Origin: Elusimicrobia bacterium UBA5214
GTDB taxonomy: Bacteria; Elusimicrobiota; UBA5214
Direction: 5' to 3'
Assembly: GCA_002412545.1 (NCBI GenBank)
Contig: DHVG01000002.1
Location: 130,095 to 194,094 of the forward strand
DNA: 64,000 bases
Position 1 is the first letter of the stretch, and every line of letters begins with the position of its first letter. The translations under genes were made by a program, and so were the position numbers. Positions 627 to 64,000 of this stretch are shown here, piece by piece. The notes under the pieces are model-generated. The model worked only from the letters and a program-made list of their open reading frames with translations. It did no database searches and was not told the origin of the DNA.

Positions 627-1484
627 ATGCGGAAAATAAGAGTTGAAGAAATAAGCAAAACCGTAAGGAATTTAGCCTTAAAGGCCAATTATCGTATCCG
701 TCCCGATGTAGAGAAAGCATTAAGAAAGATTTACAAAAGGGAATCATCACCCTTATGTAAATGGGCAGTTGCACAAGTTTTGGAGAACCTGCGGATTGCG
801 GAAAGAGAACAAATACCGGTCTGTCAGGATACCGGTTTTGTGGTTATCTTTGTAGAATTAGGTGAAGAGGTAAAAATTGAAGGTAATCTTTATCAGGCAA
901 TTGAAAAAGGAGTAAGGCAAGCATATAAAGAAGGATATTTTCGTGATTCAGTAGTAACTGACCCGCTTCGCCAAACCAACGGACGAACGGACAAACGGTC
1001 TAACGCCAAACGGTTTTCCGAAATCCATCTTGAACTTGTCCCGGGTGACAAATTGAAAATCAATTTAATGCCAAAGGGTGCCGGGAGTGAAAATAACAGT
1101 GCTTATATAAACCTTCTGCCGGGTATTGGGGAAGAAGGGGTAAAAAAATTTGTCCTGGAAACAGTTGAAAAAGGCGCATATACTTCCTGTCCCCCGATAA
1201 TTGTGGGAGTCGGTATTGGCGGTAATTTTGAAACTTGCACATTGTTAGCGAAGAAAGCATTACTCCGTCCTTTAGGTTTACGACATCAAGATTCTTATTA
1301 TGCACAATTGGAAAAGGAAATCTTGAAGGAAATAAATGCTCTTGGTATCGGTGCACAAGGTTTTGGAGGAGGAATAACTGCATTTGATGTTTTTATTGAA
1401 ACTTATCCTTGCCATATCGCTTCCTTGCCGGTAGCAGTAAATTTACAATGTAATGCCTGCCGACATGAAGTAGCCCGGTTCTGA
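627..1484 (+). CDS. Class I (Fe-S) fumarate hydratase / tartrate dehydratase alpha subunit
   Basis: A CQDTG motif and a VVIFVELG...GNLYQAI block are typical of the Fe-S hydro-lyase tartrate/fumarate alpha region. The start is placed at ATG 627 (MRKIRVEE); the longer ORF begins at 525. Confidence 0.8.
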   Translation: MRKIRVEEISKTVRNLALKANYRIRPDVEKALRKIYKRESSPLCKWAVAQVLENLRIAEREQIPVCQDTGFVVIFVELGEEVKIEGNLYQAIEKGVRQAYKEGYFRDSVVTDPLRQTNGRTDKRSNAKRFSEIHLELVPGDKLKINLMPKGAGSENNSAYINLLPGIGEEGVKKFVLETVEKGAYTSCPPIIVGVGIGGNFETCTLLAKKALLRPLGLRHQDSYYAQLEKEILKEINALGIGAQGFGGGITAFDVFIETYPCHIASLPVAVNLQCNACRHEVARF

Positions 1485-3634: not shown

Positions 3635-3768
3635 TTGAGACGATTCAGACAGATAAGGGATTGATTCAAACAGATGTAAAAATGATTCAAATAGATTTTT
3701 ATCCGTTTGAATCCGAGTCGTTATCTTGTTTGAGTTGTCCCATTTATCTGTTTGCATCGTGAATCTAT

Positions 3769-8281: not shown

Positions 8282-8569
8282 ATGAAAATTAAACCATTAG
8301 GCGACCGGGTAATTGTTAAACCAAAAGAAGTAACCGAAGAAAAAAGAGGTGGAATAATTATTCCCGATACCGCAAAAGAAAAACCACAAGAAGGCGAAGT
8401 AATTGCCGTCGGTCCGGGTAAAGTTACTGAGGATGGTAAACCAATCAAAATGGAAGTAAAAGTTGGCGACCGGATTCTCTATGGGAAGTATTCAGGTACA
8501 GAAATAAAAATTGATGATGTTGAACACTTAATTATGCACCAAGATGATATTCTTGGTATAATAGAATGA
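8282..8569 (+). CDS. groES: Co-chaperonin GroES
   Basis: [13 protein letters not shown]...[24 protein letters not shown] is canonical GroES. Confidence 0.95.
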
Positions 8570-8689
8570 TTACGGTGATTATAGAGGGCGATTACAGAGA
8601 TTTTTCGGGTATAACGAATTGGTTTAATCACTGTAATCAGTCTTAAGAAATCGCTGTAATCAATAATTTAGAAGTAAATGGAGGTGTAA

Positions 8690-10372: not shown

Positions 10373-10402
10373 AAAGGCGACTTTTTTGAGTCGCCTTTTT
10401 TG
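10373..10402 (+). terminator. Rho-independent terminator after groEL
   Basis: aggcgac-tttttt-gagtcgcc stem-loop followed by a T-run. Confidence 0.7.
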
Positions 10403-16930: not shown

Positions 16931-17060
16931 GGAAACGATAAGGGCAAACTCCTCCCCCGTTGTAACTTTGGGGGATCTCGATGGTTTACCTTCGGGAGAG
17001 AAATCGGAGGACGCAAAGCTACGGGGCTAAATCCACTGTCTGTGGATAAGTTGGCCGGGC
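16931..17060 (+). ncRNA. Putative cyclic-di-GMP-I (GEMM) riboswitch aptamer in the pilT leader
   Basis: AAGGGCAAAC...GGACGCAAAGCUACGGGGCUAAA matches the conserved GGGCAAAC / GGACGCAAAGCC...GGCCUAAA blocks of GEMM-I (Vc2-like). A candidate terminator/expression-platform hairpin sits at 17104-17170 (gccgagttacc...ggtaactcggc + tttt). Confidence 0.55.
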
Positions 17061-17197
17061 TGCCGAAAAGATTTAGGTATCATTCATTTGGCAGTGGATA
17101 TGCTCGCCGAGTTACCGAAAAAACGATAAAAAGTAAAACAAAATTTGAATAAGGTAACTCGGCTTTTATTTTGAGGGGAGAGGAGGAGTAATTAAGA

Positions 17198-18319
17198 ATG
17201 AAAATTGATGATTTATTGCGTTTGATGGTTTCAAACCGTGCTTCAGATTTGCATTTGAAAGCCGACACTCGTCCTTTATTGAGGATAGACGGAGAACTGA
17301 TTCCCGAGGATAAATTACCTGAATTTTCCAGTGCAGAAATCTGGGAACTGGTTTGCCAGATGATTGGCGAAGAGCAAAAAGATAAATTCACTCAGGAAAA
17401 AGAATTAGATTTTGCCTATAATCTATCCGGTTTAGCAAGATTTCGTGTAAACACCTATCTACAAAGAGGACAAATTGGTGTTTCAATAAGGGCGATTCCC
17501 TGGGATATTCCTACCTTAGATAAATTGGGATTTCCACCAGTGATTAAGGAGTTAGCTCTTAAACCGAGAGGTTTGGTCTTGGTCACCGGTCCGACGGGAA
17601 GCGGAAAATCAACAACTCTCGCGGCAATCATCAATTATATCAATGTTAATCGGCGTTGTCAGATAATTACTATTGAAGACCCGATTGAGTTTGTGCATAA
17701 AAATAAATTGAGTAATATTGACCAGCGCGAGTTAGGTAGTGACACTCTCTCCTTTGCTAATGCTTTGAAACATGTCCTCCGACAAGACCCGGATGTAATT
17801 TTAGTTGGTGAAATGCGCGACTTGGAAACAATCGCTTTAGCGATTACTGCTGCGGAAACCGGGCATCTAGTTTTTTCTACTTTGCATACTACGGGTGCGG
17901 CAGCAACCATTGACCGGATTATTGATGTTTTCCCACCAACTCAACAATCTCAGGTAAGGTTGCAAATTGCTACACTCTTGGAGGGGGTAATCTCTCAGAT
18001 TCTTTTACCCTGTGCGGATAGTAAAGGAAGAGTTGCTGCTTTAGAGATTATGATTTCTACTCCGGCGATTCGCAATCTTATCCGGGAGAATAAAGTTTTT
18101 CAGATTTCTTCGGTGATGCAAACCGGTGTTTCTTCAGGAATGCAGACACTTGACCTTGCTTTGAAGAAACTATGTGAAGAAAAACTGATTACTTACGAAG
18201 AAGCATTAACTAAGTGCAGCGAGCCGGAACAGTTTCAAAAAATGCACTCTGCGGGTAAATTCAGAGAGACCAAATTTAGTTCCCCAGCACCAATTTCTGG
18301 CAATGTCGTTCCTGCATAA
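17198..18319 (+). CDS. pilT: Type IV pilus retraction ATPase PilT
   Basis: Walker A GPTGSGKST, ITIEDPIEF, the Asp box and GMQT..L are PilT/PilU family motifs. Confidence 0.85.
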   Translation: MKIDDLLRLMVSNRASDLHLKADTRPLLRIDGELIPEDKLPEFSSAEIWELVCQMIGEEQKDKFTQEKELDFAYNLSGLARFRVNTYLQRGQIGVSIRAIPWDIPTLDKLGFPPVIKELALKPRGLVLVTGPTGSGKSTTLAAIINYINVNRRCQIITIEDPIEFVHKNKLSNIDQRELGSDTLSFANALKHVLRQDPDVILVGEMRDLETIALAITAAETGHLVFSTLHTTGAAATIDRIIDVFPPTQQSQVRLQIATLLEGVISQILLPCADSKGRVAALEIMISTPAIRNLIRENKVFQISSVMQTGVSSGMQTLDLALKKLCEEKLITYEEALTKCSEPEQFQKMHSAGKFRETKFSSPAPISGNVVPA

Positions 18320-20600: not shown

Positions 20601-21722
20601 ATGGTAAATCCGCGCTATCAGAAACGTTTAGAAAGATGTGGTCATTTGATGAAAGAAACCGGACTGGATGTTATTCTGCTCAGTAAACCGGCTAATCTGT
20701 TTTATCTTACCGGTGACGGTCGTCTCTGTGCCTACGCGATGGTTACGCAAGGAGGTAAAGTTGCTCTTGGTGTTCCGCAGACCGATGTGGAAGATGTCAA
20801 GCAGGTGGCACATTTTGACCATCTTGTTGGTTTTGAAGATGAGGTGGGGATGATACATTCTATTGCGCATTACTTTATGCATTTTAATATTAGTAAAGGT
20901 GTATTGGGGCTGGAATATACTTTTCTCACTCAAGTAATGATGGGAATGTTTACCCATCCCCATGCCAAGCCGAAAGGGGTAACGGTCAAGGACTGTACCC
21001 ATATTATGTCTGAACTGCGTATAGTCAAGGATGCCGAGGAAATTGAAAATATCCAGAGAGCAGCAAAAGTGGCTGATGTGGGAATGGATGCGGCAGTAAA
21101 AGCGGTGAAACCAGGTCTCAGCGAAAGCCAAATTGCTGCCGAATCCGAGTATGCAATGCGGCAGAACGGTGCTGAAGGTTTTTGGCGAACTTATGTCTCC
21201 TCGGGTCCGCGGACAAATATTGCTCACGGGTTACCTACATTACGCAAACTGCAAAACGGTGATTTGGTAATGATTGATGTTCATCCAATTGTTAATGGTT
21301 ACAGTGCGGATATGTGTCGGACAGTATGCGTGGGTAAACCAACGGTAGAGCAGCAAACCGCTTAAGATTTGTATTTAAAAGCACAACAGGCAACCATCAG
21401 CAAAATCAAAGCCGGGGTCAAGATAATGGAGCTTGAAGAGACATTGCACGGAGTGCTTAAAAACGCTGGACATAGTGAGCATATTTTCGGTCCACCGATT
21501 CACGGTGTCGGTATAGAGTTTGAAGAAGCACCTTTACCACCTGGACATGCTTTTTTCCACGGTGAAAAAGAACCACCACCTTTAGAAACTAATGTAGTCA
21601 TTTCGGTAGGTAATTGCGGCTTGTATACTGGTCCTTGGGGTGTGCGCGTGGAAGACACGGTAGTTGTTGGTGCCGAGGGACCGGTTGTTCTCACCGGTTA
21701 TCCACGAAAATTGGGGAAATAG
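20601..21722 (+). pseudogene. M24-family Xaa-Pro aminopeptidase/prolidase interrupted by a single in-frame TAA at 21363-21365
   Basis: ORFs 20601-21365 and 21369-21722 are in the same frame. The junction ...GKPTVEQQTA*DLYLKAQQATI reads continuously across the stop. Metal-ligand motifs (H..GHG..H, E..V) lie in the second part. Confidence 0.55.
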
Positions 21723-22997: not shown

Positions 22998-24710
22998 TTA
23001 CATTTTTTCCGGTGCAGAAACACCGATTAAGTCCAACCCGGTTCGGATAATTGTTCTTACTGCTTCTACTAAACTTAGCCGGGCTAAAGTCAAATTCCTA
23101 TCTTCGGAAATTACCCGATATTTTTCGTAATAACGGTGGAACAAATTAGCCAACTCCAAGAGATAGACCGCTAAATTGTGCGGACTTAAATTTTCTGCAC
23201 AAGTTACCAGAATATCCGGGAAAAAAGAAAGTTTTTTTATTAAGTCAAGTTCTGATTTTTCTTTCAATAGTTGATAGTTGATAGTTAATAGTTGATAGTT
23301 GATTCCTTCTTTTTCTGCCTGACGGAAGATACTTACTGCACGCGTATGTGCGTATTGGATATAGTAGACCGGATTTTCCGGGGATTGTTTCTTTGCCAAG
23401 TCAAGGTCAAATTGTAATTGTGCTTCCGGTGAACGGGTAAGAAAGAAATAACGACAGGCATCTTTTCCTACCTCATCCAGTAATTGTCGCAGAGTAACAA
23501 ATTCACCTGCCCGGGTAGACATTGCTACCGGTTGTCCTTCACGGATAAGACTTACCAACTGGTAAAGAATAATCTGTAACTGCTCCGGTTTGTAACCGAG
23601 GGCTTTTATTCCGGTTTTCATCCGGGCAATGTATCCGTGGTGGTCAGCTCCCCAGAGGTTGATTAGGCGGTCAAATTTTCGTTCCAATTTATCCCGGTGG
23701 TAGGCAAGGTCACCAGCTAAATAAGTTGGACGGCCGTCAGCACGAATCAGAACCCGGTCTTTCTCATCGTTCCCTAAGGTAGATTTGAACCATAAAGCAT
23801 TGTCTTTTTCGTAGGCATATCCCTTCTCTTTCAGTTGAGAAATTGTCTCTTCCACTTTTTTCTTTTGGTAAAGGTCGGACTCGGTGGACCAAATATCAAA
23901 TTTAATACTAAAATCTTCCAAATCTTTTTTGATGTCTTCAAGGTTTTCTTCCATAGCGATTTTGGAAAAATAACTTTCTGGTTTCTTTTCTATATCGGCT
24001 GGAGTAAGAACTCCTGCTCTTTCTTGACGGGCTATCTTTGTAGCCATTTCTATAATATCCTTTATATACTCCCCACGGTATGCAGCATTATTTAACCATT
24101 CTTCTTCTTCCGGTGTTAATTTCTTCTTAAATATGAATTCTTTTATTCTTAATTTTACCGTTTTACCTAAGTTTTCAATCTGGTTGCCGATATCATTGAT
24201 ATAATACTCCCTTTTTACTTCCCAACCGAGAAAAGAAAAAATTCTGGCTAAAGAATCACCGATTGCTGCACCTCTGCCGTGTCCGACATGGAGCGGACCG
24301 GTAGGATTTGCCGAGACAAATTCAAAAAGTATTTTTTCTCTTTTACCTAAGTTTGTTTTTCCATAATTTTTTCCTTGTCCTAAAATTGTTTTTAATTCTT
24401 GATAAACTCTTTCTGGAGCAAGAGAAAAATTGAGAAAAACCGGGGGCATAAATTCGACTTTAACGAACGGAGAAGAGGGAGTGATAAGTGAAGGGATAAT
24501 TTTATTGGTAATCTCCATAATCTCCACGGCTGGTTTATCTATCTCCTGACTAATAATTGAAACAATATTACATGACCCATCAGCAGAAATGTGTGCAGGT
24601 GGAATTTCTACCGTAGGTTTTGGTAGTTTTCTATTCTCAGGAATAATTTTTTCTTTTTTTAGTTGTTCAATCAGCTGGTCAATAAAAGTATAAATTTCTT
24701 CTTTAATCAT
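22998..24710 (-). CDS. argS: Arginine--tRNA ligase
   Basis: Class I HIGH motif (PTGPLHVGHGRG), the anticodon-binding DALK domain and a C-terminal ...VSAPEKM. It contains an in-frame TAGTTGA tandem repeat (23266-23303). Confidence 0.95.
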   Translation of the reverse strand: MIKEEIYTFIDQLIEQLKKEKIIPENRKLPKPTVEIPPAHISADGSCNIVSIISQEIDKPAVEIMEITNKIIPSLITPSSPFVKVEFMPPVFLNFSLAPERVYQELKTILGQGKNYGKTNLGKREKILFEFVSANPTGPLHVGHGRGAAIGDSLARIFSFLGWEVKREYYINDIGNQIENLGKTVKLRIKEFIFKKKLTPEEEEWLNNAAYRGEYIKDIIEMATKIARQERAGVLTPADIEKKPESYFSKIAMEENLEDIKKDLEDFSIKFDIWSTESDLYQKKKVEETISQLKEKGYAYEKDNALWFKSTLGNDEKDRVLIRADGRPTYLAGDLAYHRDKLERKFDRLINLWGADHHGYIARMKTGIKALGYKPEQLQIILYQLVSLIREGQPVAMSTRAGEFVTLRQLLDEVGKDACRYFFLTRSPEAQLQFDLDLAKKQSPENPVYYIQYAHTRAVSIFRQAEKEGINYQLLTINYQLLKEKSELDLIKKLSFFPDILVTCAENLSPHNLAVYLLELANLFHRYYEKYRVISEDRNLTLARLSLVEAVRTIIRTGLDLIGVSAPEKM

Positions 24711-25175: not shown

Positions 25176-26420
25176 CTACTTAAGAATTTTTTTATCTTTT
25201 AAACAATCTTCACCAAGAATAATAGTTACATCAACCATCCTTTCCGGTTCAATATTACTAATTAAATCGTTACCCGGAAAGATACTTTTTACCTTTTCGG
25301 TTTTTTTTAAATCACCAGTCCGGTCAATAATCAGGGTAGATTGCTTTTTCTCCCCATAATTACCCCATTTAATTACATCTACCCCCTGGCGCCGTAAAAA
25401 ACGGGTCATCCGGAGAGCTAATCCTTGTTGTTCAGTAGCATTCCATACTTCAGCAGTTACGGTAGGTAAAACTGTCTCTTCAGTTGAAATTTTTTCTTCC
25501 GGTTTTATTTCCTCTAATCTGCTCACTGAAAGCAATTCAGTTACCGGACCGATTTTTCCTTTATCGGGTATCCATAAATTAGAGTCGGGTCTTCCGGGAA
25601 GATAAAGAATACGTAAATTATCCGGAGAGAAATTTTTTACTTCCGAAGATAAATTTAGCAAATCCCAGAATGATAGATTCGTCTGAATTTTTGCGACGGC
25701 TTCTTTCAGGAGTAAAGGTAACCTAAAAAAAAGTAAAGGATTCTTTATTTTAGCAAAGATACTGCGTAAAAACCGTTGTTGGCGGACAGTCCTTTCCGTA
25801 TCACCGCTTTCATCACGGTAACGGACATATTCCAGTGCCTTTTTGCCGTTGAGAATATATTCACCGGGCTCAAAATGGATATCCAACTTTCCCCAACTAT
25901 CATGATAATCCATAACTTTATCTATTTTGATTGGTATGCCACCGAGTAAATTAACAATTTTGACAAATGATGAATAGTCTAACTGGCAATAATAAGGGAT
26001 AACAATTTGCTTTTCTTCCGAAGAAAGGAATTCTTCAATTACTTTTTTGAAAGAAGCGGGAGCTTGCGAGTTCCCTTCCTGACGACAATAATAAGCATAA
26101 ATTTCGTTAATTCTCTTATTTCTGAAGTAGTTACCTCTTGGTACCGTAGATTCAATTCTTGTATCCCGCGGGATGAAAAGTAAATTAAGAGATTTTTCTT
26201 TGGGTAAGTAACTAAAGACAATAATCGTATCCGCATGTTTAGCGTAAGCAACTTCGTCACAACCGAGGAGTAAACCGTAGATAGTTTCATTTTTACTGAT
26301 TGCTTTAGTAAGCGGACTGGTTAAGGAAAAATATAAAGAAAAAATAATCAGTAACAGGAAAATTGCAAAAATATAGTGTTCGGTCTGAAATTGGGAGAAA
26401 ATTGTTTTATTTTTTTCCAT
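25176..26420 (-). CDS. LytR-CpsA-Psr (LCP) family cell-envelope transferase
   Basis: N-terminal TM. DTIIVFS...L..IPRDT....P.....KINE.YAY is the LCP domain core. Confidence 0.7.
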   Translation of the reverse strand: MEKNKTIFSQFQTEHYIFAIFLLLIIFSLYFSLTSPLTKAISKNETIYGLLLGCDEVAYAKHADTIIVFSYLPKEKSLNLLFIPRDTRIESTVPRGNYFRNKRINEIYAYYCRQEGNSQAPASFKKVIEEFLSSEEKQIVIPYYCQLDYSSFVKIVNLLGGIPIKIDKVMDYHDSWGKLDIHFEPGEYILNGKKALEYVRYRDESGDTERTVRQQRFLRSIFAKIKNPLLFFRLPLLLKEAVAKIQTNLSFWDLLNLSSEVKNFSPDNLRILYLPGRPDSNLWIPDKGKIGPVTELLSVSRLEEIKPEEKISTEETVLPTVTAEVWNATEQQGLALRMTRFLRRQGVDVIKWGNYGEKKQSTLIIDRTGDLKKTEKVKSIFPGNDLISNIEPERMVDVTIILGEDCLKDKKILK

Positions 26421-26991
26421 AGAGCCGATTTTGGTAAATATATTCTTCTACATTCCCAGGGACAAAATATTTTATACTTTTCCCTTCACCGATATATTCT
26501 CTAAGTTCTTTACTGGAAATATCTAAACCAAGAAGGGGGAAAACAGTGACCTTTTTAAGGATTTCCTTTTTTACTTTCTCAGTTGGAACTCCCGGGCGCA
26601 TACCGACAATGAATGAACATAATTCTAATATTTTTGTTCCTTTTTCCCAAGTATCAATTTCAAGCAGTGTATCCGAACCAATAAGAAAAAAAAGTTCATC
26701 TTTTGGGTATTTTCGTTTAAAAAAGTTTATTGTTTTGTAAGTGTAAGATTTACCTTTACTCTTTAATTCAAATGGGGAAAGAGAAAAGTATTTATTGTTT
26801 TGAATCGCCAGTTTTACCATCTGGTAGCGGTCTTCTGCTGGAGCAAGGTCAGAAACTTTATGTGGCGGCTTACCCGCAGGAATAAAAATAACCTGGTCTA
26901 AATTGAGGTATTCTCTTGAGGTTTCGGCTAGAATCAAATGTCCGTAATGAATTGGGTTAAAACAACCACCGAATAATGCAATTTTCATCAT
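26407..26991 (-). CDS. nadD: Nicotinate-nucleotide adenylyltransferase
   Basis: IALFGGCFNPIHYGHL (H/T-x-G-H nucleotidyltransferase) and SDTLLE motifs. Confidence 0.85.
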   Translation of the reverse strand: MMKIALFGGCFNPIHYGHLILAETSREYLNLDQVIFIPAGKPPHKVSDLAPAEDRYQMVKLAIQNNKYFSLSPFELKSKGKSYTYKTINFFKRKYPKDELFFLIGSDTLLEIDTWEKGTKILELCSFIVGMRPGVPTEKVKKEILKKVTVFPLLGLDISSKELREYIGEGKSIKYFVPGNVEEYIYQNRLYGKK

Positions 26992-27092
26992 TCCGTTATT
27001 TCCGTTGAGTCCGTTTTGACCGTTTAGTCGGTTATTTCCGTTGAGACCGTTGAACGGGCTGAACGGACTAAACGGATTAAACGGACTTAACG
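26992..27092. repeat. Roughly 100-bp hairpin built from CCGTT/AACGG heptamer-like repeats. It fills the entire proA-nadD intercistronic gap.
   Basis: The left half is (tccgtt[atg]n)x6 and the right half is (aacgg[agt]n)x6, so the two halves are reverse complements. Confidence 0.85.
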
Positions 27093-27093
27093 C

Positions 27094-28377
27094 TTATTCT
27101 CTTATCTGTCCTTTTCCAAAAACAATATATTTGGTTGAAGTAAGTTCATTAAGACCCATCGTCCCCCGGGCATGTAATTTTTGGGTAGAGATACCAATTT
27201 CCGAGCCAAACCCGAAGACACCACCGTCATGCAGACGGGTAGAAGCATTGTGAAATACCGCACTCGAGTCAACTTCCTGCAAAAATTTTTTTGCGGTTTC
27301 TTTATTTTCGGTAACGATTGTTTCACTATGTCCGGAACCATACTTATTGATATGCTCAATTGCTTCCTCTACCGAATCAACAATTTTTATTGCTAAAATC
27401 AAAGTGAGATATTCTCGATACCAATCGTCCTCAGTGGCTGGTTTAACCTCAGGAATAATTTGTTGTGTCCTTGTGCAACCACGGAGTTCTACGCCGGCTT
27501 TTTTATATTCCTCAATCATTAAGGGTAAGAATTTTTTGGCAATTTCTTGATGCACAAGTAATTTCTCCATTGCATTGCATACACCCGGACGCTGAACCTT
27601 AGCATTATAACAGATTTTAATTGCCATCTCTATATTTGCTTCCTTATCTACATAAGTGTGACAGTTACCTTTACCATGAGCAAGAACCGGGACGGTCGCT
27701 TTCTCCCGAATTGCCCGAATCATTTCTTCACCACCACGGGGAATGACTAAATCAATATACTGGTCTAATTTAATTAACTCAGAAATTGCCTCCCGTTCAG
27801 TAGTTTCAATGAACTCAATACTTCCATCTGGAATACCATTTGCATAAGCAGTTTGTCCAATAATTTTTGCTAAGATTGTATTTGTCTTGATTGCTTCCGA
27901 ACCACCACGCAAAATTACCGCATTACCCGATTTCAAACATAGACCACTCGCTTCTATGGTAACATTGGGGCGGGATTCGTAAATCATTAAAATTACACCC
28001 AGCGGGACCGATACTTTCTGGATTTTTAATCCATTCGGTTCGGTTTTGTTTACCTTGAGCCCGCCGAAAGGTCTAGTCCATTCAGCAATAATTTTACCTA
28101 CCGGGTCAGACAAATCAACAATTTCTTTTAGCCCCTTTACCATTTCACTAATTCTTTTTTCATTTAAAGTAAGACGGTCAATCAGTGCTGAAGAAAGATT
28201 TACCTTTTTAGCATTATTCAAATCAACTTGGTTAGCAGAGAGAATTTTTGTTTTTTCTTTCTTTAAAGCATCCGCTATTGCTAAAAGTGCCTTGTTCTTT
28301 ATTTCAGTACTTAAATTTGCTAATTTCCGACAAGCACTTTTTGCCCTTTCTGCTTTTTTAATCAGTTCTTCTTTCAT
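27094..28377 (-). CDS. proA: Gamma-glutamyl phosphate reductase
   Basis: Aldehyde dehydrogenase fold with Cys in ...GQ.CNA.E..LVH motif; ...IPRGG...I and GHSE.I.T. Confidence 0.9.
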   Translation of the reverse strand: MKEELIKKAERAKSACRKLANLSTEIKNKALLAIADALKKEKTKILSANQVDLNNAKKVNLSSALIDRLTLNEKRISEMVKGLKEIVDLSDPVGKIIAEWTRPFGGLKVNKTEPNGLKIQKVSVPLGVILMIYESRPNVTIEASGLCLKSGNAVILRGGSEAIKTNTILAKIIGQTAYANGIPDGSIEFIETTEREAISELIKLDQYIDLVIPRGGEEMIRAIREKATVPVLAHGKGNCHTYVDKEANIEMAIKICYNAKVQRPGVCNAMEKLLVHQEIAKKFLPLMIEEYKKAGVELRGCTRTQQIIPEVKPATEDDWYREYLTLILAIKIVDSVEEAIEHINKYGSGHSETIVTENKETAKKFLQEVDSSAVFHNASTRLHDGGVFGFGSEIGISTQKLHARGTMGLNELTSTKYIVFGKGQIRE

Positions 28378-33668: not shown

Positions 33669-34664
33669 TCAATGTTTAGTTTTCTTTTTTTCCCTCTCTC
33701 TTAAACACATCTCAGCAGCGAGTTTAACTGCGGAGAACATCGGGCGTGCGTCAGCGAGATTTTTACCGGCAATGTCAAAAGCAGTGCCGTGTCCGGGTGA
33801 AGTGCGAATGAAGGGCAAACCAAGGGTAACATTGACTAAAGAATAAGGGTCAAGCAGTTTTAGAGGTATCATTGCCTGGTCGTGATACATTACAATAATT
33901 AAATCATATTTTTTCCACCACTGGAAAACCGTATCTGCCGGTAAAGGACCTGTAACTTGCAACTTGTAACCTGTAACTTGTTTGATTGCCGGGATGATTA
34001 TCTCTTTTTCTTCCTTACCGAGAACTCCGCCTTCGCCGCGGTGCGGATTTAAGGCACAAACCGCAATTCTTAGTTTAGCAATAGAGAAATATTTTTCTAA
34101 TGCTTTGGCTCCAAGTTTAATTGCCAAAATAATTTTTTCTTTAGTTAAACTATTAGCGACATCTTTTAAAGGTAAATGCCGGGTAACCATTGCTACTTTA
34201 AGTTTTTTGTTCACCATCAGCATAAGCAAATTCTTTTTCCCGGTTAATTCAGCAAGGATTTCGGTATGTCCGGAATAATTCAATCCGGCACGGTTTAATG
34301 CTTCTTTAGATATCGGTGCAGTAACCAAACCGTCCACCTGTCCATTCTGCACCAATTCTACTGCTTTTTTGATATATTCATAACTTAATTGTCCATACTC
34401 AGAGTTAGTCATACCGAAGTTTAGTTTCCTAATCTTGCCGATATTGATTAATTCAAATTCTCTATTGGAAACGACTGGAGGGTATTTTTTAAGATAAAAG
34501 TCTAAAACTGATTTTGTACCGATAACTACCGGTTGGCAAATTTGGTAAACTTCTTTCTTGGCAAGTGTTTTGATGACTATTTCCGGACCGATACCTGCAG
34601 GGTCACCGATTGTGATTGCAAGAGACGGCTTTTTACTCAATTTCGCTAATTTTGATTGTAGCAT
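33669..34664 (-). CDS. pdxA: 4-hydroxythreonine-4-phosphate dehydrogenase
   Basis: ITIGDPAGIGPEIV, HTE, NPHRGEGG and SPGHGTAFDIAGK are PdxA signatures. It contains an in-frame repeat (33949-33980). Confidence 0.85.
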   Translation of the reverse strand: MLQSKLAKLSKKPSLAITIGDPAGIGPEIVIKTLAKKEVYQICQPVVIGTKSVLDFYLKKYPPVVSNREFELINIGKIRKLNFGMTNSEYGQLSYEYIKKAVELVQNGQVDGLVTAPISKEALNRAGLNYSGHTEILAELTGKKNLLMLMVNKKLKVAMVTRHLPLKDVANSLTKEKIILAIKLGAKALEKYFSIAKLRIAVCALNPHRGEGGVLGKEEKEIIIPAIKQVTGYKLQVTGPLPADTVFQWWKKYDLIIVMYHDQAMIPLKLLDPYSLVNVTLGLPFIRTSPGHGTAFDIAGKNLADARPMFSAVKLAAEMCLREREKKKTKH

Positions 34665-35703
34665 TACTCCTTAATTGTTTTAAGAAATCCTGATATATTT
34701 TTTCTGCTTTACTCCGATAGAGATACTCTTGTAACTCTTCCTTCACTTCGCTATAAGTGAGTTTACTTTTTGCTTTTTTCTCTTCACATTTGATTAAATG
34801 ATAACCAAAATCAGTCTCCACAATATCGCTTACTTCGCCCACCGGTAAGGAAAAGGCAACTTTTTCAAATTCGGGAACCATATCGCCGTGGACAAAAAAA
34901 CCGAGGTCGCCGCCTTGTTCTTTACTTCCCGGGTCTTCAGAATATTTTCGTGCTAATTCACTGAAATCTTCACCGTTTTTAATCTTTTGTTGGATTTCTT
35001 TGATTTTGTTCAGTGCAGTTGTCTTATCCTGCATACTGGCATTTTTTTCTACCCGAATAAGAATATGTCTCACTCGGACACGTTCAGCAGTGCGCCGCTG
35101 AAAGAATTTGGCTAAACTGGCAATTTCATTTTCTTCTTCAGCGGATAGATTTGGGTCTTGTTTCCCGTCAATTTGGTCAACAATTTTATCGTACAATTTT
35201 GTAGTTTCTTCTTCTTTGGGTACCCCCACTTTCGCTTTTATTTCTAAATCAATAAGTTTAATCACCATCAATTGGTCCTGGATTCTTTTTTCAAAATCAG
35301 TTTCAGTTAAAGATTGTTTTTTTAATTCGGTTTGGAAATCTTCCGGGTTAGGGAAACGTTTTTTTACTTCGTTGACCCCATCCTCAATCTCTCTTTTGGC
35401 AACCACAATTTTGCGTTTCTTTGTCTCCTGAAGTAAGATTTTTTCGTCAATCATCTGATTGAGGACATCTTTTTTTAACTGACGGATTTTTTCCGTAGTT
35501 TGTTCACTTGCCGGGGTTAAAAGTTTATATTGTTCAACTAATGGCTGGACATTTTTTTCTAACTCGGAGAGAAGGATTGCCTCACCATTAACCATAGCGA
35601 TAGTTTTATTTACCACCGTTTTCTCTTGAGCAAGGACTGACTGAGTCAGTAACCAATAACCGATAACCAGTAACCAATAACCGAATTTCAAGGATTTCTT
35701 CAT
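34633..35703 (-). CDS. SurA/PrsA-like periplasmic chaperone with a parvulin PPIase domain
   Basis: Signal peptide and a parvulin block VRHILI...GGDLGFF..G.M...F...AF.L..GEVS..V.T.FGYHLIK. The signal peptide itself is encoded by the tandem repeat LVIGYWLLVIGYWLL. Confidence 0.7.
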   Translation of the reverse strand: MKKSLKFGYWLLVIGYWLLTQSVLAQEKTVVNKTIAMVNGEAILLSELEKNVQPLVEQYKLLTPASEQTTEKIRQLKKDVLNQMIDEKILLQETKKRKIVVAKREIEDGVNEVKKRFPNPEDFQTELKKQSLTETDFEKRIQDQLMVIKLIDLEIKAKVGVPKEEETTKLYDKIVDQIDGKQDPNLSAEEENEIASLAKFFQRRTAERVRVRHILIRVEKNASMQDKTTALNKIKEIQQKIKNGEDFSELARKYSEDPGSKEQGGDLGFFVHGDMVPEFEKVAFSLPVGEVSDIVETDFGYHLIKCEEKKAKSKLTYSEVKEELQEYLYRSKAEKIYQDFLKQLRSNATIKISEIE

Positions 35704-45833: not shown

Positions 45834-45932
45834 TTCCGATTTCCGATTTTAGATTTACGATGTCAATCGTCAATCAACAATCATCAATCACTAAATCGGT
45901 AGTTTTCTCGTAAAAGTTGTTCCTTTCTTTGA

Positions 45933-49110: not shown

Positions 49111-49229
49111 TTATTTACCGCTTTTGCTGTTTTTACCGCTTAATCAGATTATACCGCTTTTACTGTTTTTGTCAAGGGTTTTTTGGAAAGATTTTTTTGC
49201 TGCAGAGGAACCCTAAAGTGTGGGTAAGT

Positions 49230-50066: not shown

Positions 50067-50152
50067 ATCTAATCCTTACTGTCTCGGTACAACTCTCAAA
50101 AATTCAGTCAACGCTTTTGCACTTTGCTTTTGTTCACTACGTTTCAGAAAAA

Positions 50153-50240
50153 AGGTGGTTAGGTGGCTAAGTGGTCAGGTAGTTAGTTTAAACCTAATAA
50201 CTTCCTTACTTCACTTACTCACTTAACCACTTAACCACTT
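50153..50240. repeat. Inverted pair of heptamer tandem arrays (GGTGGTTA... / ...TTAACCAC). One arm encodes the C-terminus and stop codon of the PfkB kinase gene.
   Basis: ggtggttaggtggctaagtggtcaggtagttagtt - taaacctaataa - cttccttacttcacttactcacttaaccacttaaccac. Confidence 0.8.
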
Positions 50241-52883: not shown

Positions 52884-52985
52884 TATTAAGCTCCTTTTGG
52901 CTATTGGCCTTTAGCCATTAGCTTTCAGCCAGATGCCCGGGCTAAGAGCCGATGGCTAACGGCTATTCGTTAAAGGCTAATAGCC

Positions 52986-54900: not shown

Positions 54901-54928
54901 ATCTGTTTGATAAGATTTATGATATTTT

Positions 54929-54980
54929 CACCCTCTCCTTAATCCTCTCCCCTTGAGGGAGAGGGACGGGGTGAGGGGGA
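54929..54980. repeat. GC-rich compound palindromic element with core cctctccccttgagggagagg
   Basis: The 21-bp core is the exact reverse complement of the core at 46589-46609. Flanking C-run/G-run arms are also inverted. Confidence 0.85.
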
Positions 54981-55785: not shown

Positions 55786-56001
55786 TTATTTCTGTTTAAG
55801 TTCTTTTTTTGTAGTCGCATTCTCTTCGTTGGGGAATAAATATTTTACTATTTCCCAAACAAGTAATCCGAGAGCAACCAAGATACCAATGATGCTACCG
55901 GTTTTGCCTATCCGGGGTATTAGCCCGAGAAATAAATTCAGAGTTAAAACTATAATTGCCATCCATAAGATTATTCCGATAAAAATATTCTTCAATCTCA
56001 T
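55786..56001 (-). CDS. Small two-helix membrane protein, hypothetical
   Basis: Hydrophobic segments only. Confidence 0.25.
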   Translation of the reverse strand: MRLKNIFIGIILWMAIIVLTLNLFLGLIPRIGKTGSIIGILVALGLLVWEIVKYLFPNEENATTKKELKQK

Positions 56002-56375
56002 AGTTTCGTAAAACAGACTTTCCTCCAGTCACAGGAAAAGCAGGCAAATTCTTGCCATTTAGGTAATATCTTTGATATCTTACTTTTTATTTTTCTCCAG
56101 AGAAGAGCATCTCCTTTTTTTAAATTTAACAATTTTAATGCCATTTTATCAAGTGCTTCTATTTCTTTTTCATAACCGGGTTTATAAATACAGATATTTG
56201 TTTTCAGATGTGGACAATACGCACATACTGCATCTGCACCGTCAACAATTTTTGTTTTTGTATCGTTTTCTAAATTTTTGATGATACCTTTAAGATTAGA
56301 TATAAACTTTTTACTATATCCTTCACCTTCAAAGAAATGTAAACAGATGAGATGGTGTCCACGCAGTTTAATCAT
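55998..56375 (-). CDS. Cys-rich DUF1284-like protein
   Basis: MIKLRGHHLICLHFF... with CAYCPH and CFSCDW Cys pairs. Confidence 0.45.
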   Translation of the reverse strand: MIKLRGHHLICLHFFEGEGYSKKFISNLKGIIKNLENDTKTKIVDGADAVCAYCPHLKTNICIYKPGYEKEIEALDKMALKLLNLKKGDALLWRKIKSKISKILPKWQEFACFSCDWRKVCFTKL

Positions 56376-56380
56376 TTACT

Positions 56381-56462
56381 CAGTTAATTCGGTTTAGTCG
56401 GTTAATTCTGTTTGGTCCGTTCAACGGTCATAACGGACATAACCGACAAAACGGACAAAACA
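56381..56462. repeat. CCGTT/AACGG heptamer-array hairpin between DUF1284 and pyrD (same family as 26992-27092)
   Basis: ttaattcggtttagtcggttaattctgtttggtccgtt | caacggtcataacggacataaccgacaaaacggacaaaac. Confidence 0.85.
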
Positions 56463-56472
56463 TTTTTTGCGA

Positions 56473-57501
56473 TCATTCGTGTATCATACTGCCGGTTAGT
56501 TTACTCAAGGTAATTTTTTGTATTTTAAGATATTGTTTTAGACCGATAAGTATTTTCTGTGGTAAAAATGGGTCACGGAAAAGAGCGCTACCTAAAGCAA
56601 TTGCTTTTGCACCGACAAGAAAAAATTCTATTGCATCTTGAGGACTATTTATTCCACCCATACCGATAATTGGTATTTTAACCTTTTGGTAAGTTTCGTA
56701 AATCATCCGTAAAACAATTGGTTTAATTGCTGGACCAGATAAACCACCAAAGACTGGTGAGTGGGAAGTGGTGAGTGGTGAGTGGGGAAAGGCAAGGGCG
56801 GAGAAAGTGTTGACTAAAGAGAGAGCATCGGCACCGGCAGATTCGGCAGTTTTGGCAATTACAGTTATATCCGTAACATTAGGGGTAAGTTTAGCAATTA
56901 CCGGTAATTTGGTTACCTTTTTTACTCTCTTTACCACCTCGTAAGTCAGTTCTGCATCCTGCGAGATAAGCGAAATTACTCCTTGCTCGGAGTTTATCCC
57001 CCCATTCTTGCTTTCGCCTGCCCCCGCGTCTCCCGACGCAAGTCGGGGCGGCGGGCAAGAAAGCAGGGGGGGACTCTTTGCTCTTGGCTCTTTGCTACGA
57101 ACATTCGGACAAGAAAGATTTAATTCCAGAGCAGATATACCTTTTTCTTTGTCTAATCTACGAGAAATCTCAGCGAATTCTTCTGCGTTCTCCGCAGCAA
57201 TACTTACGACTATTGGTATTTTAAGTTTTCTTTTTAAAAAAGGTAATTTTTCTTTTAGAAAAATTTCCAAACCCGGATTTTCCAGACCAATTGAATTAAT
57301 CATTCCTTCCATTGTTTCTACAATTCTCGGCGACGGATTACCCGCACGCGGTTTAAGAGTAACTGTCTTTGTAGTTATCGCCCCGAAAACATTCAGGTTA
57401 ATTAACTTACTGTATTCTTCACCAAAACCAATAATTCCACTGGCAACAAGGAGTGGATTTTTTAGTTTTATTCTGGCAATTTCAGTTGATAAATTAACCA
57501 T
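56473..57501 (-). CDS. pyrD: Dihydroorotate dehydrogenase catalytic subunit (class 1B)
   Basis: NPLL.ASG, ...ELN.SCPN..., GG and other TIM-barrel FMN motifs. It carries a ~35-aa low-complexity insertion (AKSPPLLSCPPPRLASGDAGAGESKNGGINSEQG) encoded by a GC-rich palindrome at 56997-57098, plus a heptamer repeat at 56745-56790. Confidence 0.85.
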   Translation of the reverse strand: MVNLSTEIARIKLKNPLLVASGIIGFGEEYSKLINLNVFGAITTKTVTLKPRAGNPSPRIVETMEGMINSIGLENPGLEIFLKEKLPFLKRKLKIPIVVSIAAENAEEFAEISRRLDKEKGISALELNLSCPNVRSKEPRAKSPPLLSCPPPRLASGDAGAGESKNGGINSEQGVISLISQDAELTYEVVKRVKKVTKLPVIAKLTPNVTDITVIAKTAESAGADALSLVNTFSALAFPHSPLTTSHSPVFGGLSGPAIKPIVLRMIYETYQKVKIPIIGMGGINSPQDAIEFFLVGAKAIALGSALFRDPFLPQKILIGLKQYLKIQKITLSKLTGSMIHE

Positions 57502-63350: not shown

Positions 63351-63395
63351 TCTCCATCTCTCCTTACTTTCCTAACTTTCTAACTCTTTAACTAT

Positions 63396-64000
63396 CTAAC
63401 TCCCTAACTTCCTAACTGCTTTTATCCCGATATCTCTTCGGTAATGCATCTTCTCAAATTTTATTTTTTCTACCGCGCTATATGTATTCTTTATCGCTTT
63501 TTCTATATTTTCACCTAAACCAGTTACACCGAGCACTCTCCCGCCATTGGTCACTAAAGTTGACCGTTCACCGTTCACCGTTAACCGTTTAGTGCCAGCA
63601 TGGAAAACAGTTATATTTTGCATTTTTTTCGTTTCTTCAAGACCAAATATTTCTTTACCTTTTTCGTAATCACCCGGATAGCCACCAGAAGCGAGGACGA
63701 CACAAACTGACGAACAAGCAGACTGGTGATTAGTGGTTAGTGATTGGTAATCGGACAAATTTTTGTCAATTGTGGCTAAACAGAGGTCAACTAAATCTTC
63801 ATTAAGCAAAGGTAAAGTTACCTGTGCTTCCGGGTCACCGAAACGACAATTGAACTCTAAAACTTTTGGTCCTTCTTCAGTAATCATTAAACCAAAATAG
63901 ATTATCCCCCGATAGTCCAGTTTTTCTGCATTTATCCCTTTTATAAAGTTAGCAAATATTTCTTTATCTATTTTTTTTCTAATTTTTTCGTTAATAATCG
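63396..64000 (-). CDS. purD: Phosphoribosylamine--glycine ligase (partial; the N-terminus lies beyond the window end)
   Basis: GIIYFGLMITEEGPKVLEFNCRFGDPE ATP-grasp block. The frame is open past 63887 to the window edge. Two in-frame heptamer repeats (63545-63575, 63715-63745). Confidence 0.85.
   Translation of the reverse strand, partial: IINEKIRKKIDKEIFANFIKGINAEKLDYRGIIYFGLMITEEGPKVLEFNCRFGDPEAQVTLPLLNEDLVDLCLATIDKNLSDYQSLTTNHQSACSSVCVVLASGGYPGDYEKGKEIFGLEETKKMQNITVFHAGTKRLTVNGERSTLVTNGGRVLGVTGLGENIEKAIKNTYSAVEKIKFEKMHYRRDIGIKAVRKLGS

What the first reader, a model, noticed from the sequence alone, without database searches (positions are those of the whole stretch)
26992..27092. Intercistronic giant hairpins made of CCGTT/AACGG repeat arrays
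Two loci are half CCGTT-type units and half their reverse complement, so each folds into a 40-50 bp imperfect stem. One is 26992-27092 between proA and nadD; the other is 56381-56462 between DUF1284 and pyrD. A third array of the same unit sits in frame in purD (63545-63575). The first two fill the whole gap between co-directional genes. That placement suggests a role as an RNA processing or stability element, or a transcriptional pause or attenuator, inside operons.
Basis: partly seen in the sequence, partly recalled or inferred. Interest (0 to 1): 0.6.

Follow-up and report, generated by a model that had tools for sequence, protein, structure and literature searches.

The report
Dispersed palindromic repeats between operon genes
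The two "giant hairpins" are real, but they are copies of a lineage-specific family of REP-like palindromic repeats built from 9-base sub-repeats, in a genome full of short tandem arrays, and close relatives lack them at the same sites, so they are not conserved gene-specific switches.

Summary
Both hairpins exist where stated. The first, at 26992-27093, fills the 102-nt proA-nadD gap (RNA -40.6 kcal/mol, z -4.8). The second, at about 56381-56462, lies in the 97-nt pyrD-DUF1284 gap (-26.3 kcal/mol, z -3.3). The repeat unit is 9 nt with a CCGTT core, not 5 nt. The two hairpins are 81% identical over 79 nt when one is flipped. A third copy sits in the pstB-phoU gap just outside the window. They therefore form a dispersed element family.

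The window holds at least six more hairpins built from inverted arrays with other units. It also holds about 30 tandem arrays of 7-9 nt units, many in frame inside housekeeping genes. Five relatives with 81-87% ProA identity lack the proA-nadD hairpin and carry unrelated arrays or another element there. Relatives carry a different ~85-nt palindromic family (GATTACAGCGAT). None of the hairpins is followed by a U-tract or matches an Rfam family. Sense and antisense strands fold about equally well, and the family alignment shows almost no covariation.

Best reading: these are REP/REPIN-like and STRR-like repeats that turn over at the DNA level, with at most generic effects on mRNA. The closest precedent is the inverted heptamer arrays of Xanthomonas. 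Novelty is modest.

The parts
26992..27093 (-). CCGTT-family palindromic element, copy 1. It fills the whole proA-nadD gap. On the sense strand there are about 5 xCCGTTxxx units followed by about 7 AACGGxxxx units.
27053..27092 (.). One arm of copy 1 (the AACGG-type array on the + strand; it is the 5' arm of the sense RNA)
   Evidence: I1: 40 nt, 78% complementary; period 9 x4.7
27003..27042 (.). The other arm of copy 1 (the CCGTT-type array on the + strand). The array itself extends to 26992.
   Evidence: I1, I2; period 9 x5.7
56376..56472 (-). CCGTT-family palindromic element, copy 2, in the pyrD-DUF1284 gap. Arms 56389-56421 and 56423-56455. It is inverted relative to copy 1 with respect to the direction of the genes.
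   Evidence: I4; 81% identity to flipped copy 1 over 79 nt
63559..63589 (-). In-frame heptamer array (GGTGAAC on the sense strand, x4.4) in purD, encoding ..RLTVNGERS... It is a coding array, not a hairpin, and is conserved base for base in relative L018.
978..1014 (+). In-frame array AACGGACx x4.6 (period 8) in the fumarate hydratase alpha gene. It shares the AACGG core.
27094..28377 (-). proA (glutamate-5-semialdehyde dehydrogenase). Its stop codon is 1-2 nt upstream of copy 1.
26407..26991 (-). nadD (nicotinate-nucleotide adenylyltransferase). Its ATG directly abuts the last unit of copy 1.
56473..57501 (-). pyrD (class 1B dihydroorotate dehydrogenase), upstream of copy 2
55998..56375 (-). 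DUF1284 gene, downstream of copy 2
8555..8670 (+). The window's copy of the clade-wide ~85-nt GATTACAGCGAT palindromic element, in the groES-groEL gap
3635..3768 (+). Array hairpin with a different unit (GATTCAAACAGAT), -49.5 kcal/mol, filling an intercistronic gap
52884..52985 (-). Array hairpin with a different unit (GGCTAxx / AGCCAT), -42.6 kcal/mol, in the LarA-purM gap
   Evidence: (I3)
54901..54960 (-). GC-rich hairpin (CCCTCTCC / GGAGAGGG) in the pyrF-PRTase gap
   Evidence: (I11)
45834..45932 (-). Weaker array hairpin (units ATTTCCG and TCAATCA) between two signalling genes
50067..50240 (-). Inverted octamer arrays AGGTGGTT / AACCACTT in an intercistronic gap, overlapping the 3' end of a PfkB-family gene

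Best explanation
The hairpin at 26992-27093 and its twin at 56376-56472 are copies of a lineage-specific family of dispersed, imperfect palindromic DNA repeats, each about 80-100 nt long. Each arm is a short array of 9-nt sub-repeats with a CCGTT or AACGG core. They belong to a clade-wide load of tandem arrays of 7-9 nt units that occur in intergenic gaps and in loops of proteins.

Shown: the architecture; at least three paralogous copies in about 70 kb of this genome; opposite orientations of the copies; absence from close relatives at the orthologous gaps; a sister family (GATTACAGCGAT) that plays the same role in relatives; and no sign of a terminator, a promoter or a known RNA family.

Inferred: the elements arise, spread and turn over at the DNA level. 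The route could be replication slippage within arms plus intra-strand template switching, ectopic copying between arrays, or an unidentified enzyme that recognises hairpins. They persist where they are tolerated, namely in spacers between co-transcribed genes right after a stop codon.

Also inferred: they are transcribed as part of the operon mRNA and fold into hairpins of -26 to -41 kcal/mol. Like REP elements, these hairpins could act as generic barriers to 3'-to-5' decay or perturb termination and reinitiation of translation at the adjacent stop and start codons. They are not conserved regulators specific to these genes.
For: - Family. Copy 1 and flipped copy 2 are 81% identical over 79 nt, including spacer positions and an odd AACCGAC unit at the same ordinal position. 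A third copy fills the pstB-phoU gap of the same genome (L049 4210-4322, -29.6 kcal/mol, alignment A7).
- Lineage specificity. There is no inverted CCGTT array in 144 kb of loci from relatives.
- Turnover. The proA-nadD gap holds ATTCGTG direct arrays in L022 and L023, AATCTGCGT arrays in L025, and a ~150-nt structured element in L003 and L024.
- Sister family. An ~85-nt GATTACAGCGAT palindrome with a fixed architecture occurs about 3 times per 15 kb in L020 and L044, in L047, and once in the window.
- Genome-wide context. The window has 15 period-7, 4 period-8 and 3 period-9 arrays, against about none in control loci. Measured enrichment over shuffles is 67 against 7.8 for 5-mer chains and 7 against 0.7 for inverted array pairs. 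Array density is 0.16-0.54 per kb in the close clade (ProA at least 81% identical, PyrD 69-78%) and 0-0.16 per kb in relatives with 56% ProA identity.
- No evidence of selection at the RNA level. 10 of 17 elements fold better as antisense, and G-U pairs number 57/508 in sense folds against 42/511 in antisense folds. Only 1 of 11 consensus pairs shows a compensatory change across the GATTACAGCGAT family.
- Not a terminator and not a known RNA.
- Precedent. Xanthomonas has 70-75 inverted pairs of heptamer arrays, mostly between aligned ORFs and close to the upstream stop codon (PMC4692102). REPs lie downstream of coding regions, often as inverted dimers, and their families can be species-specific (PMC3733652).
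Against: - Only three copies were seen, because only about 70 kb of this genome could be read. The copy number across the genome is unknown.
- No terminal inverted repeats, target-site duplications or GTAG/CGTC tag are visible.
- No transposase or RAYT-like gene is among the 30 window ORFs scanned, so the mechanism of spread is unknown.
- The two arms carry unequal numbers of units (about 5 and about 7), which fits local slippage as well as transposition.
- The pyrD-DUF1284 gap carries an array hairpin in 3 of 5 lineages. This could reflect selection for some hairpin at that position.
- All four assemblies that hold the proA-nadD locus have the identical hairpin, so there is no population-level evidence of instability.
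- No expression data were available.
Confidence: 0.6

Rival explanations
1. A selected intercistronic RNA element. Within the operon mRNA the hairpin would be an RNase III or RNase E processing site, a decay barrier that sets the proA:nadD and pyrD:DUF1284 expression ratios, or a structure that couples or decouples translation, since it runs from the stop codon to the start codon.
For: - The hairpin fills the gap exactly, from 1-2 nt after the proA stop codon to the nadD ATG.
- The fold is strong and non-random.
- The pyrD-DUF1284 gap holds an array hairpin in the window, L020 and L047 although the window's sequence differs from theirs.
- The third copy ends in AACGGAGG 6 nt before the phoU ATG, so it supplies a Shine-Dalgarno-like sequence.
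- REP hairpins are known to stabilise upstream mRNA (my own knowledge of the malE-malF case; also PMC3733652).
Against: - The hairpin is absent from the proA-nadD gap of five close relatives.
- The copies lie in opposite orientations relative to transcription.
- The antisense strands fold better than the sense strands for both focal hairpins, and G-U pairs show no strand bias.
- The sister family shows no covariation.
- Distances to the downstream start codon and Shine-Dalgarno sequence vary among elements.
Confidence: 0.2
2. Independent, neutral expansion at each locus. A small seed palindrome (CCGTT-C/G-AACGG) would have been extended on both sides by replication slippage, with no dispersal of a pre-formed element.
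For: - Both hairpins are centred on CCGTT(C/G)AACGG.
- The arms carry unequal numbers of units, and periods of 7, 8 and 9 nt share one core.
- The genome is rich in slippage-type arrays.
- Mrazek et al. 2007, as summarised in PMC4679880, attribute heptamer-rich arrays to polymerase slippage.
Against: - The 81% identity over 79 nt includes non-core spacer bases and a shared variant unit.
- A third alignable copy exists.
- The same few unit classes recur at unrelated loci: AGCCATC three times and CACTCAC twice among about 20 heptamer arrays. By my own estimate there are roughly 1,170 heptamer classes once rotation and strand are ignored, so random seeding predicts about 0.2 shared pairs.
- The sister GATTACAGCGAT family has a fixed four-site architecture at many loci.
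Confidence: 0.12
3. A transcriptional terminator, pause site or attenuator inside the operon.
For: The hairpin is long and stable and sits directly after a stop codon.
Against: - No U-run follows the stem on the sense strand, and the terminator scan finds nothing there.
- The stem is AT-rich and imperfect.
- Bona fide terminators in the same window look different: GC-rich perfect stems followed by T-runs, for example near 10380, 13480 and 38940.
- Downstream genes such as nadD and pyrF are essential and have no promoter-like site of their own in the gap.
Confidence: 0.03
4. An array of binding sites for a sequence-specific protein: either a DNA-binding protein (iteron-like or centromere-like, CCGTT every 9 bp and then inverted) or an RNA-binding protein that recognises UCCGUU.
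For: - The 5-nt core is conserved while the spacers vary, and the same core occurs at periods of 7, 8 and 9 nt.
- The GATTACAGCGAT family places its 12-mers about 21-22 bp apart, which is two helical turns.
Against: - A 9-bp spacing puts successive sites on different faces of the DNA helix.
- Many unrelated unit sequences show the same architecture in one genome.
- The complementary arm could not bind the same RNA-binding protein.
- The same core occurs in frame inside enzymes.
- No candidate binding protein was identified.
Confidence: 0.05

Closest known systems
Inverted pairs of GGGAATC heptamer arrays in Xanthomonas (Rehm et al. 2015, PMC4692102)
   Same: - Tandem arrays of a short unit, paired with the complementary array close by, able to form a stem-loop.
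- Mostly intergenic, between ORFs that point the same way.
- Very close to, or overlapping, the upstream stop codon.
- Length and sequence vary between related species.
   Different: - The unit here is 9 nt, AT-rich and cannot form a G-quadruplex.
- Several unrelated unit families coexist in this genome.
- In Xanthomonas 83% of sites are shared between two species, whereas the focal hairpin here is absent from relatives with 81-87% protein identity.
- The host is an uncultured lineage labelled Elusimicrobia.
STRR / LSSR-type short tandemly repeated sequences: cyanobacterial STRR heptamers, TAACTGA repeats of Beggiatoaceae, and the long simple sequence repeats of Mrazek et al. 2007 (PMC4679880, plus my own knowledge of Mazel 1990 and Vioque 1997)
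   Same: - Tandem copies of a 5-11 nt unit, with heptamers dominant across the genome.
- A small vocabulary of units reused at many loci.
- Mostly in gaps within operons, with some arrays inside ORFs in the stop-free orientation.
- A clade-restricted trait with no known mechanism of spread.
- From memory: STRR arrays lengthen helix P12 of RNase P RNA in heterocystous cyanobacteria, which is a hairpin made of arrays.
   Different: - The focal elements are palindromic composites that align as whole elements, not simple direct arrays.
- Their arrays are imperfect (69-86% matches).
- Many arrays in this genome sit in conserved loops of essential enzymes.
REP / BIME / REPIN elements of proteobacteria (PMC3733652; PMC3116915)
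   Same: - Dispersed imperfect palindromes downstream of coding regions, between unidirectional genes.
- Often inverted dimers that fold into structures of about 80-110 nt.
- Families can be species-specific.
- Transcribed within operons.
- Occasionally found inside genes.
   Different: - No GTAG or CGTC tag.
- The arms are built from 9-nt sub-repeats rather than one 20-40 bp palindrome.
- No RAYT gene was seen.
- Copy number is unknown.
Intrinsic (Rho-independent) terminators and attenuators
   Same: A stem-loop in a transcript just downstream of a stop codon.
   Different: - No U-tract follows the stem.
- The stem is long, AT-rich and bulged.
- It lies between essential co-transcribed genes.
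- Canonical terminators in the same window have a different form.

Membership tests
Short tandem arrays of 5-11 nt units (LSSR / STRR type), including inverted array pairs | Head-to-tail copies (three or more) of a 5-11 nt unit | tested here: met
   Tandem Repeats Finder reports period 9 x5.7 and x4.7 at locus 1 and x3.7 and x4.3 at locus 2, with 69-86% matches.
Short tandem arrays of 5-11 nt units (LSSR / STRR type), including inverted array pairs | The same unit or core is reused at several loci of the genome, and arrays are far more frequent than chance | tested here: met
   The CCGTT/AACGG core forms arrays at 978, 26992, 56389 and 63559, and at L049 4229. 5-mer chains number 67 against 7.8 expected.
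Short tandem arrays of 5-11 nt units (LSSR / STRR type), including inverted array pairs | Two arrays of complementary units lie close together in convergent orientation (an inverted pair, as in Xanthomonas) | tested here: met
   Arms of 40 nt at 78% and 33 nt at 76% complementarity, 10 nt and 1 nt apart. Inverted array pairs number 7 against 0.7 expected.
Short tandem arrays of 5-11 nt units (LSSR / STRR type), including inverted array pairs | Intergenic, close to the stop codon of the upstream ORF | tested here: met
   Copy 1 starts 1-2 nt after the proA stop codon and copy 2 starts 10 nt after the pyrD stop codon. Other elements start 0-5 nt after a stop codon or overlap it.
REP / REPIN (RAYT-associated palindromes) | An unpaired GTAG or CGTC tetranucleotide tag at one end of the palindrome | tested here: not met
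   Reading the ends of the three copies directly shows no GTAG or CGTC tag. The tag is the defining feature in PMC3733652.
REP / REPIN (RAYT-associated palindromes) | Dispersed, alignable copies of an imperfect palindrome, often as inverted dimers of about 80-110 nt | tested here: met
   Three copies of about 80-100 nt align with one another, with 81% identity between two of them.
REP / REPIN (RAYT-associated palindromes) | High copy number (tens to hundreds per genome) | not testable with these tools
   Only about 70 kb of this genome was accessible, and it holds 3 copies.
REP / REPIN (RAYT-associated palindromes) | A cognate RAYT (IS200/IS605-like Y1 transposase) gene in the genome, flanked by the repeats | tested here: inconclusive
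   None of the 30 window ORFs scanned against Pfam is a transposase. The rest of the genome was not examined.
MITE | Terminal inverted repeats derived from an insertion sequence, plus target-site duplications | tested here: not met
   No duplicated flanking bases are visible at the three copies. The whole element is a palindrome made of sub-repeats. In relatives the entire gap differs, rather than showing an empty site.
Intrinsic terminator / attenuator | A GC-rich stem followed directly by a U-run on the transcribed strand | tested here: not met
   The terminator scan finds no site on the minus strand at either hairpin. The sequence after each stem runs straight into the start codon.
Any curated RNA family (Rfam 15) | A covariance-model match at the family's gathering score | tested here: not met
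   The only hit in the window is a c-di-GMP-I riboswitch at 16933-17067. Nothing matches at the hairpins.

The most novel reading that the evidence does not exclude
This clade has an active, sequence-selective process that writes a small vocabulary of 7-9 nt units into the genome. Examples of the units are AACGG-N, AGCCATC, CACTCAC and GATTACAGC. Candidate processes are an unrecognised hairpin-dependent or template-dependent enzyme, or ectopic templated repair between arrays. In intergenic spacers the process would yield palindromic hairpin elements. In coding DNA it would overwrite protein loops at roughly constant length, as seen in PyrD, PyrK, PyrC, PurD, PurM, ProA, ArgS and fumarase. The focal hairpins would then be the non-coding side of a new kind of very small mobile element, comparable to the small dispersed repeats proposed for Nostoc but acting on essential genes.
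Probability: 0.15. Interest if true: 0.7.

Novelty: new member of a known kind. Interest (0 to 1): 0.3.

Why it matters
For annotation, these hairpins should be labelled as a dispersed repeat family, not as riboswitches, attenuators or terminators.

The wider interest lies in the context. An uncultured lineage labelled Elusimicrobia carries a heavy, clade-specific load of tandem arrays of 7-9 nt units. It uses a limited vocabulary of units, shows palindromic composite elements that replace one another at orthologous gaps over short evolutionary distances, and has arrays that substitute for loops of essential enzymes.

How such short-unit repeat families spread is unresolved. The cyanobacterial STRR arrays, the Beggiatoa TAACTGA repeats and the Xanthomonas GGGAATC arrays pose the same question, and PMC4679880 states that "no mechanism is evident". 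A lineage with several coexisting families and many metagenomic relatives is a good system for comparative work on that question.

Tried and rejected
- Terminator or attenuator: rejected. No U-tract follows either stem, the scans find nothing on the sense strand, and canonical terminators in the window look different.
- Known RNA family: rejected.
- Strain-level variation of the hairpin: not informative. All assemblies that hold the locus (NCBI DHFL01000077, JGI Ga0134312_100111, Logan SRR1564103) are identical. The 193-aa and 194-aa NadD variants differ only in which start codon was called.
- Orthology of the pyrD-DUF1284 hairpins in the window, L020 and L047: the gap sequences could not be aligned reliably. 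It remains open whether the window's hairpin is a diverged descendant of the CAGCGAT-type hairpin or a replacement. The 9-nt units AATCCGTTT and AATCGCTGT share 6 of 9 bases, which is only suggestive.
- Strand-asymmetry test for selection at the RNA level: no asymmetry was found.
- Covariation in the sister family: essentially none.
- Apparent fragmentation of purD in assembly L049: it looked like elements interrupting the gene, but it is caused by runs of N and assembly errors.
- A specific meaning for CCGTT as a 5-nt motif: the pentamer is not enriched overall.
- Elhai et al. 2008 on small dispersed repeats could not be retrieved. It is cited from memory only.

Full report
**Observation**

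The genes at both loci lie on the minus strand. The gap between proA (27094-28377) and nadD (26407-26991) is 102 nt (26992-27093) and is wholly occupied by the repeat structure.

Tandem Repeats Finder reports a 9-nt period, not a 5-nt one. On the + strand it finds TCCGTTxxx x5.7 at 26992-27042 and the complementary unit (xxxAACGGA) x4.7 at 27051-27092. The best gapless arms are 40 nt long and 78% complementary.

The sense RNA folds at -40.6 kcal/mol, with z = -4.8, and none of 200 dinucleotide shuffles folds as well. As single-stranded DNA the two strands fold at -30.0 and -25.4 kcal/mol.

The second locus sits in the 97-nt gap between pyrD (56473-57501) and DUF1284 (55998-56375). Its arms are 33 nt long and 76% complementary, and the sense RNA folds at -26.3 kcal/mol with z = -3.3.

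The purD array is real but lies at 63559-63589. It is a heptamer (GTTCACC x4.4), is in frame, and adds five residues relative to a solved PurD. A fourth array with the same core lies in frame in a fumarate hydratase gene at 978-1014.

The pentamer CCGTT is not enriched overall. What is non-random is its clustering.

**The hairpins are not a special case in this genome**

The window carries about 30 tandem arrays with 7-9 nt units. Among arrays of at least 3 copies there are 15 of period 7, 4 of period 8 and 3 of period 9, whereas unrelated control loci have essentially none. Chains of a 5-mer repeated at 6-11 nt spacing number 67 against 7.8 in shuffles. Inverted array pairs number 7 against 0.7.

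Other intercistronic gaps hold hairpins of the same build but with unrelated units:
- 3635-3768: unit GATTCAAACAGAT, -49.5 kcal/mol
- 8555-8670: unit GATTACAGCGAT
- 45834-45932
- 50067-50240: units AGGTGGTT / AACCACTT
- 52884-52985: unit GGCTAxx, -42.6 kcal/mol
- 54901-54960: units CCCTCTCC / GGAGAGGG

Many arrays lie inside housekeeping genes in the stop-free orientation.

**The two focal hairpins are copies of one element**

When one hairpin is flipped, the two are 81% identical over 79 nt. The identity covers spacer bases and a variant AACCGAC unit at the same ordinal position. They therefore lie in opposite orientations relative to transcription.

A third alignable copy fills the pstB-phoU gap of the same genome, about 3 kb beyond the end of the window (L049 4210-4322, -29.6 kcal/mol).

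None of the 144 kb of loci fetched from relatives holds an inverted CCGTT array.

**Comparative evidence**

The organism is an uncultured bacterium. The contig is DHFL01000077 of GCA_002400355.1, and a protein at least 90% identical to a window protein is labelled Elusimicrobia in NCBI.

| Relative(s) | ProA identity | Content of the proA-nadD gap |
|---|---|---|
| L022, L023 | 87%, 82% | 61 nt of ATTCGTG-type direct repeats, no hairpin |
| L025 | 82% | 73 nt of AATCTGCGT-type direct repeats |
| L003, L024 | 82%, 81% | A different ~150-nt structured element |

| Relative | PyrD identity | Content of the pyrD-DUF1284 gap |
|---|---|---|
| L020 | 77% | Array hairpin of the CAGCGATTA family |
| L047 | 69% | Array hairpin of the CAGCGATTA family |
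| L046 | 74% | The ~150-nt structured element, in reverse orientation |
| L048 | 69% | 33 nt of TTGTAAT direct repeats |

The focal sequences are therefore not conserved, and these gaps are sites of rapid turnover. That 3 of 5 lineages have some hairpin at pyrD-DUF1284 is not clearly more than chance, given that roughly half of all 80-150-nt gaps in these genomes hold one.

**A sister family in relatives**

The GATTACAGCGAT sequences form a defined ~85-nt palindromic element. Its consensus is TGATTnCAGCGATTA-N6-CCGATTACAGCGAT, a loop, then ATCACTGTAATCG-N-ATCGCTGTAATCA. The first unit often overlaps the upstream stop codon.

The element occurs about three times per 15 kb in L020 and L044, in L047, and once in the window between groES and groEL. 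Across copies the arms are conserved in sequence, with A-C mismatches and almost no compensatory change. Array density is 0.16-0.54 per kb in the close clade (ProA at least 81% identical, PyrD 69-78%) and 0-0.16 per kb in relatives with 56% ProA identity.

**Tests of function**

- No hairpin is followed by a U-run, and the terminator scan finds nothing on the sense strand. No promoter-like site lies in either gap.
- Canonical terminators elsewhere in the window are GC-rich perfect stems followed by T-runs.
- No Rfam family matches.
- If the structures were selected as sense RNAs, G-U pairs and greater stability should favour the sense strand. They do not: 10 of 17 elements, including both focal ones, fold better as antisense, and G-U pairs number 57/508 in sense folds against 42/511 in antisense folds.
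- Placement between co-directional genes carries no information, because 55 of 56 gene junctions in the window are co-directional.
- No transposase is among the 30 window ORFs scanned.

**Interpretation**

The best-supported reading is a lineage-specific family of dispersed palindromic repeats whose arms are short arrays of 9-nt sub-repeats. The family is part of a clade-wide population of short-unit arrays that arise and turn over at the DNA level and survive where they are tolerated.

Transcription within the operon and a generic REP-like effect are inferred, not shown. Such an effect could be a barrier to decay, or interference with termination and initiation of translation at the abutting stop and start codons.

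A gene-specific regulatory role is not supported by the comparative data, though it cannot be excluded without transcript mapping. Purely local slippage is disfavoured by the full-length similarity of the copies and by the reuse of a few unit classes at unrelated loci.

**Comparison with known systems**

The closest precedent is the GGGAATC heptamer arrays of Xanthomonas. There, 70-75 sites per genome are inverted pairs. Most lie between aligned ORFs close to the upstream stop codon, and their length varies between species (PMC4692102).

Heptamer-dominated long simple sequence repeats, cyanobacterial STRR arrays and the TAACTGA repeats of Beggiatoaceae belong to the same general kind, and their mode of spread is unknown (PMC4679880).

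REP/REPIN elements share the dispersed palindromic form, the location and the species specificity. However, they are defined by a GTAG or CGTC tag, which is absent here, and by RAYT genes, which were not found in the window (PMC3733652).

I therefore file the finding as a new member of the inverted short-unit array kind that behaves like REP elements, not as a REP family member.

**Verdict**

Novelty is modest. The more unusual feature is the surrounding phenomenon of arrays that replace loops of essential enzymes, recorded under things noticed in passing.

Noticed in passing
window 5754-5796, 13783-13815, 14038-14065, 14151-14181, 23267-23303, 33951-33981, 35650-35682, 52227-52260, 56755-56785, 59487-59521, 59662-59693, 59751-59784, 61218-61251: Heptamer and octamer tandem arrays lie in frame inside housekeeping genes: a BcrAD-type activase, a YggS-like protein, ArgS, PdxA, a SurA-like protein, PurM, PyrD, PyrK (three arrays) and PyrC. 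In PyrD and PyrK they replace native loops at nearly the same length instead of being inserted. Relatives carry different arrays at the same positions. The same unit classes recur at unrelated genes (AGCCATC three times, CACTCAC twice).
   Followed up: partly
window 56962-57096 (inside pyrD): There is a clade-specific hypervariable insert after the catalytic SCPNxR motif of PyrD. It is 0-45 residues long among relatives and absent in Omnitrophota homologues. In the window it consists of a CTCTTTG array (57074-57096) followed by a GC-rich imperfect palindrome (about 56990-57075), all in frame.
   Followed up: partly
L003 1262-1470; L024 3769-3945; L046 1455-1660 (reverse strand): A conserved structured element of about 150 nt (fold energies of the whole gaps -70 to -88 kcal/mol) occupies the proA-nadD gap in two relatives. 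In a third relative it occupies the pyrD-DUF1284 gap in the opposite orientation, with compensatory changes in a GC-rich stem. In L003 it is flanked by 19-nt inverted repeats. It has no Rfam match even at E <= 1. It looks like a mobile structured element or an unclassified small RNA gene.
   Followed up: partly
L049 4210-4322 (same genome, about 3 kb beyond the end of the window): A third CCGTT-type inverted-array hairpin fills the pstB-phoU gap. Its last unit runs into AACGGAGG just upstream of the phoU start codon.
   Followed up: yes
window 63559-63589 and L018 5287-5317: The purD heptamer array is identical base for base in the window and in a relative whose PyrD is only 74% identical, although nearby synonymous sites differ.
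   Followed up: partly
window 16933-17067 (+): A c-di-GMP-I riboswitch (Rfam RF01051, 59.8 bits) lies upstream of a type II/IV secretion ATPase gene (17198-18319).
   Followed up: no
window 57548-59254 (-): A 568-aa ORF with no Pfam match sits between pyrK and pyrD. These two genes are adjacent in relative L018. L020 has a copper-type P-type ATPase at the same place.
   Followed up: no
window 20601-21722 (+): An M24 peptidase (Xaa-Pro aminopeptidase-like) gene is split by a single in-frame TAA at 21363-21365 into ORFs of 254 and 117 residues. Possible causes are a pseudogene, a sequencing error or recoding.
   Followed up: no
window 49111-49229 (-): This gap holds direct AAAGCGGTA-type arrays that overlap a near-consensus sigma-70-like promoter (TTGACA, 17 nt, TATAAT) on the sense strand.
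   Followed up: no
window 63351-63422 (-): An octamer array (ACTTTCTA x6.4 on the + strand) spans the purD stop codon and the purD-purE gap. It encodes the last residues of PurD, which differ from those of relative L018.
   Followed up: no
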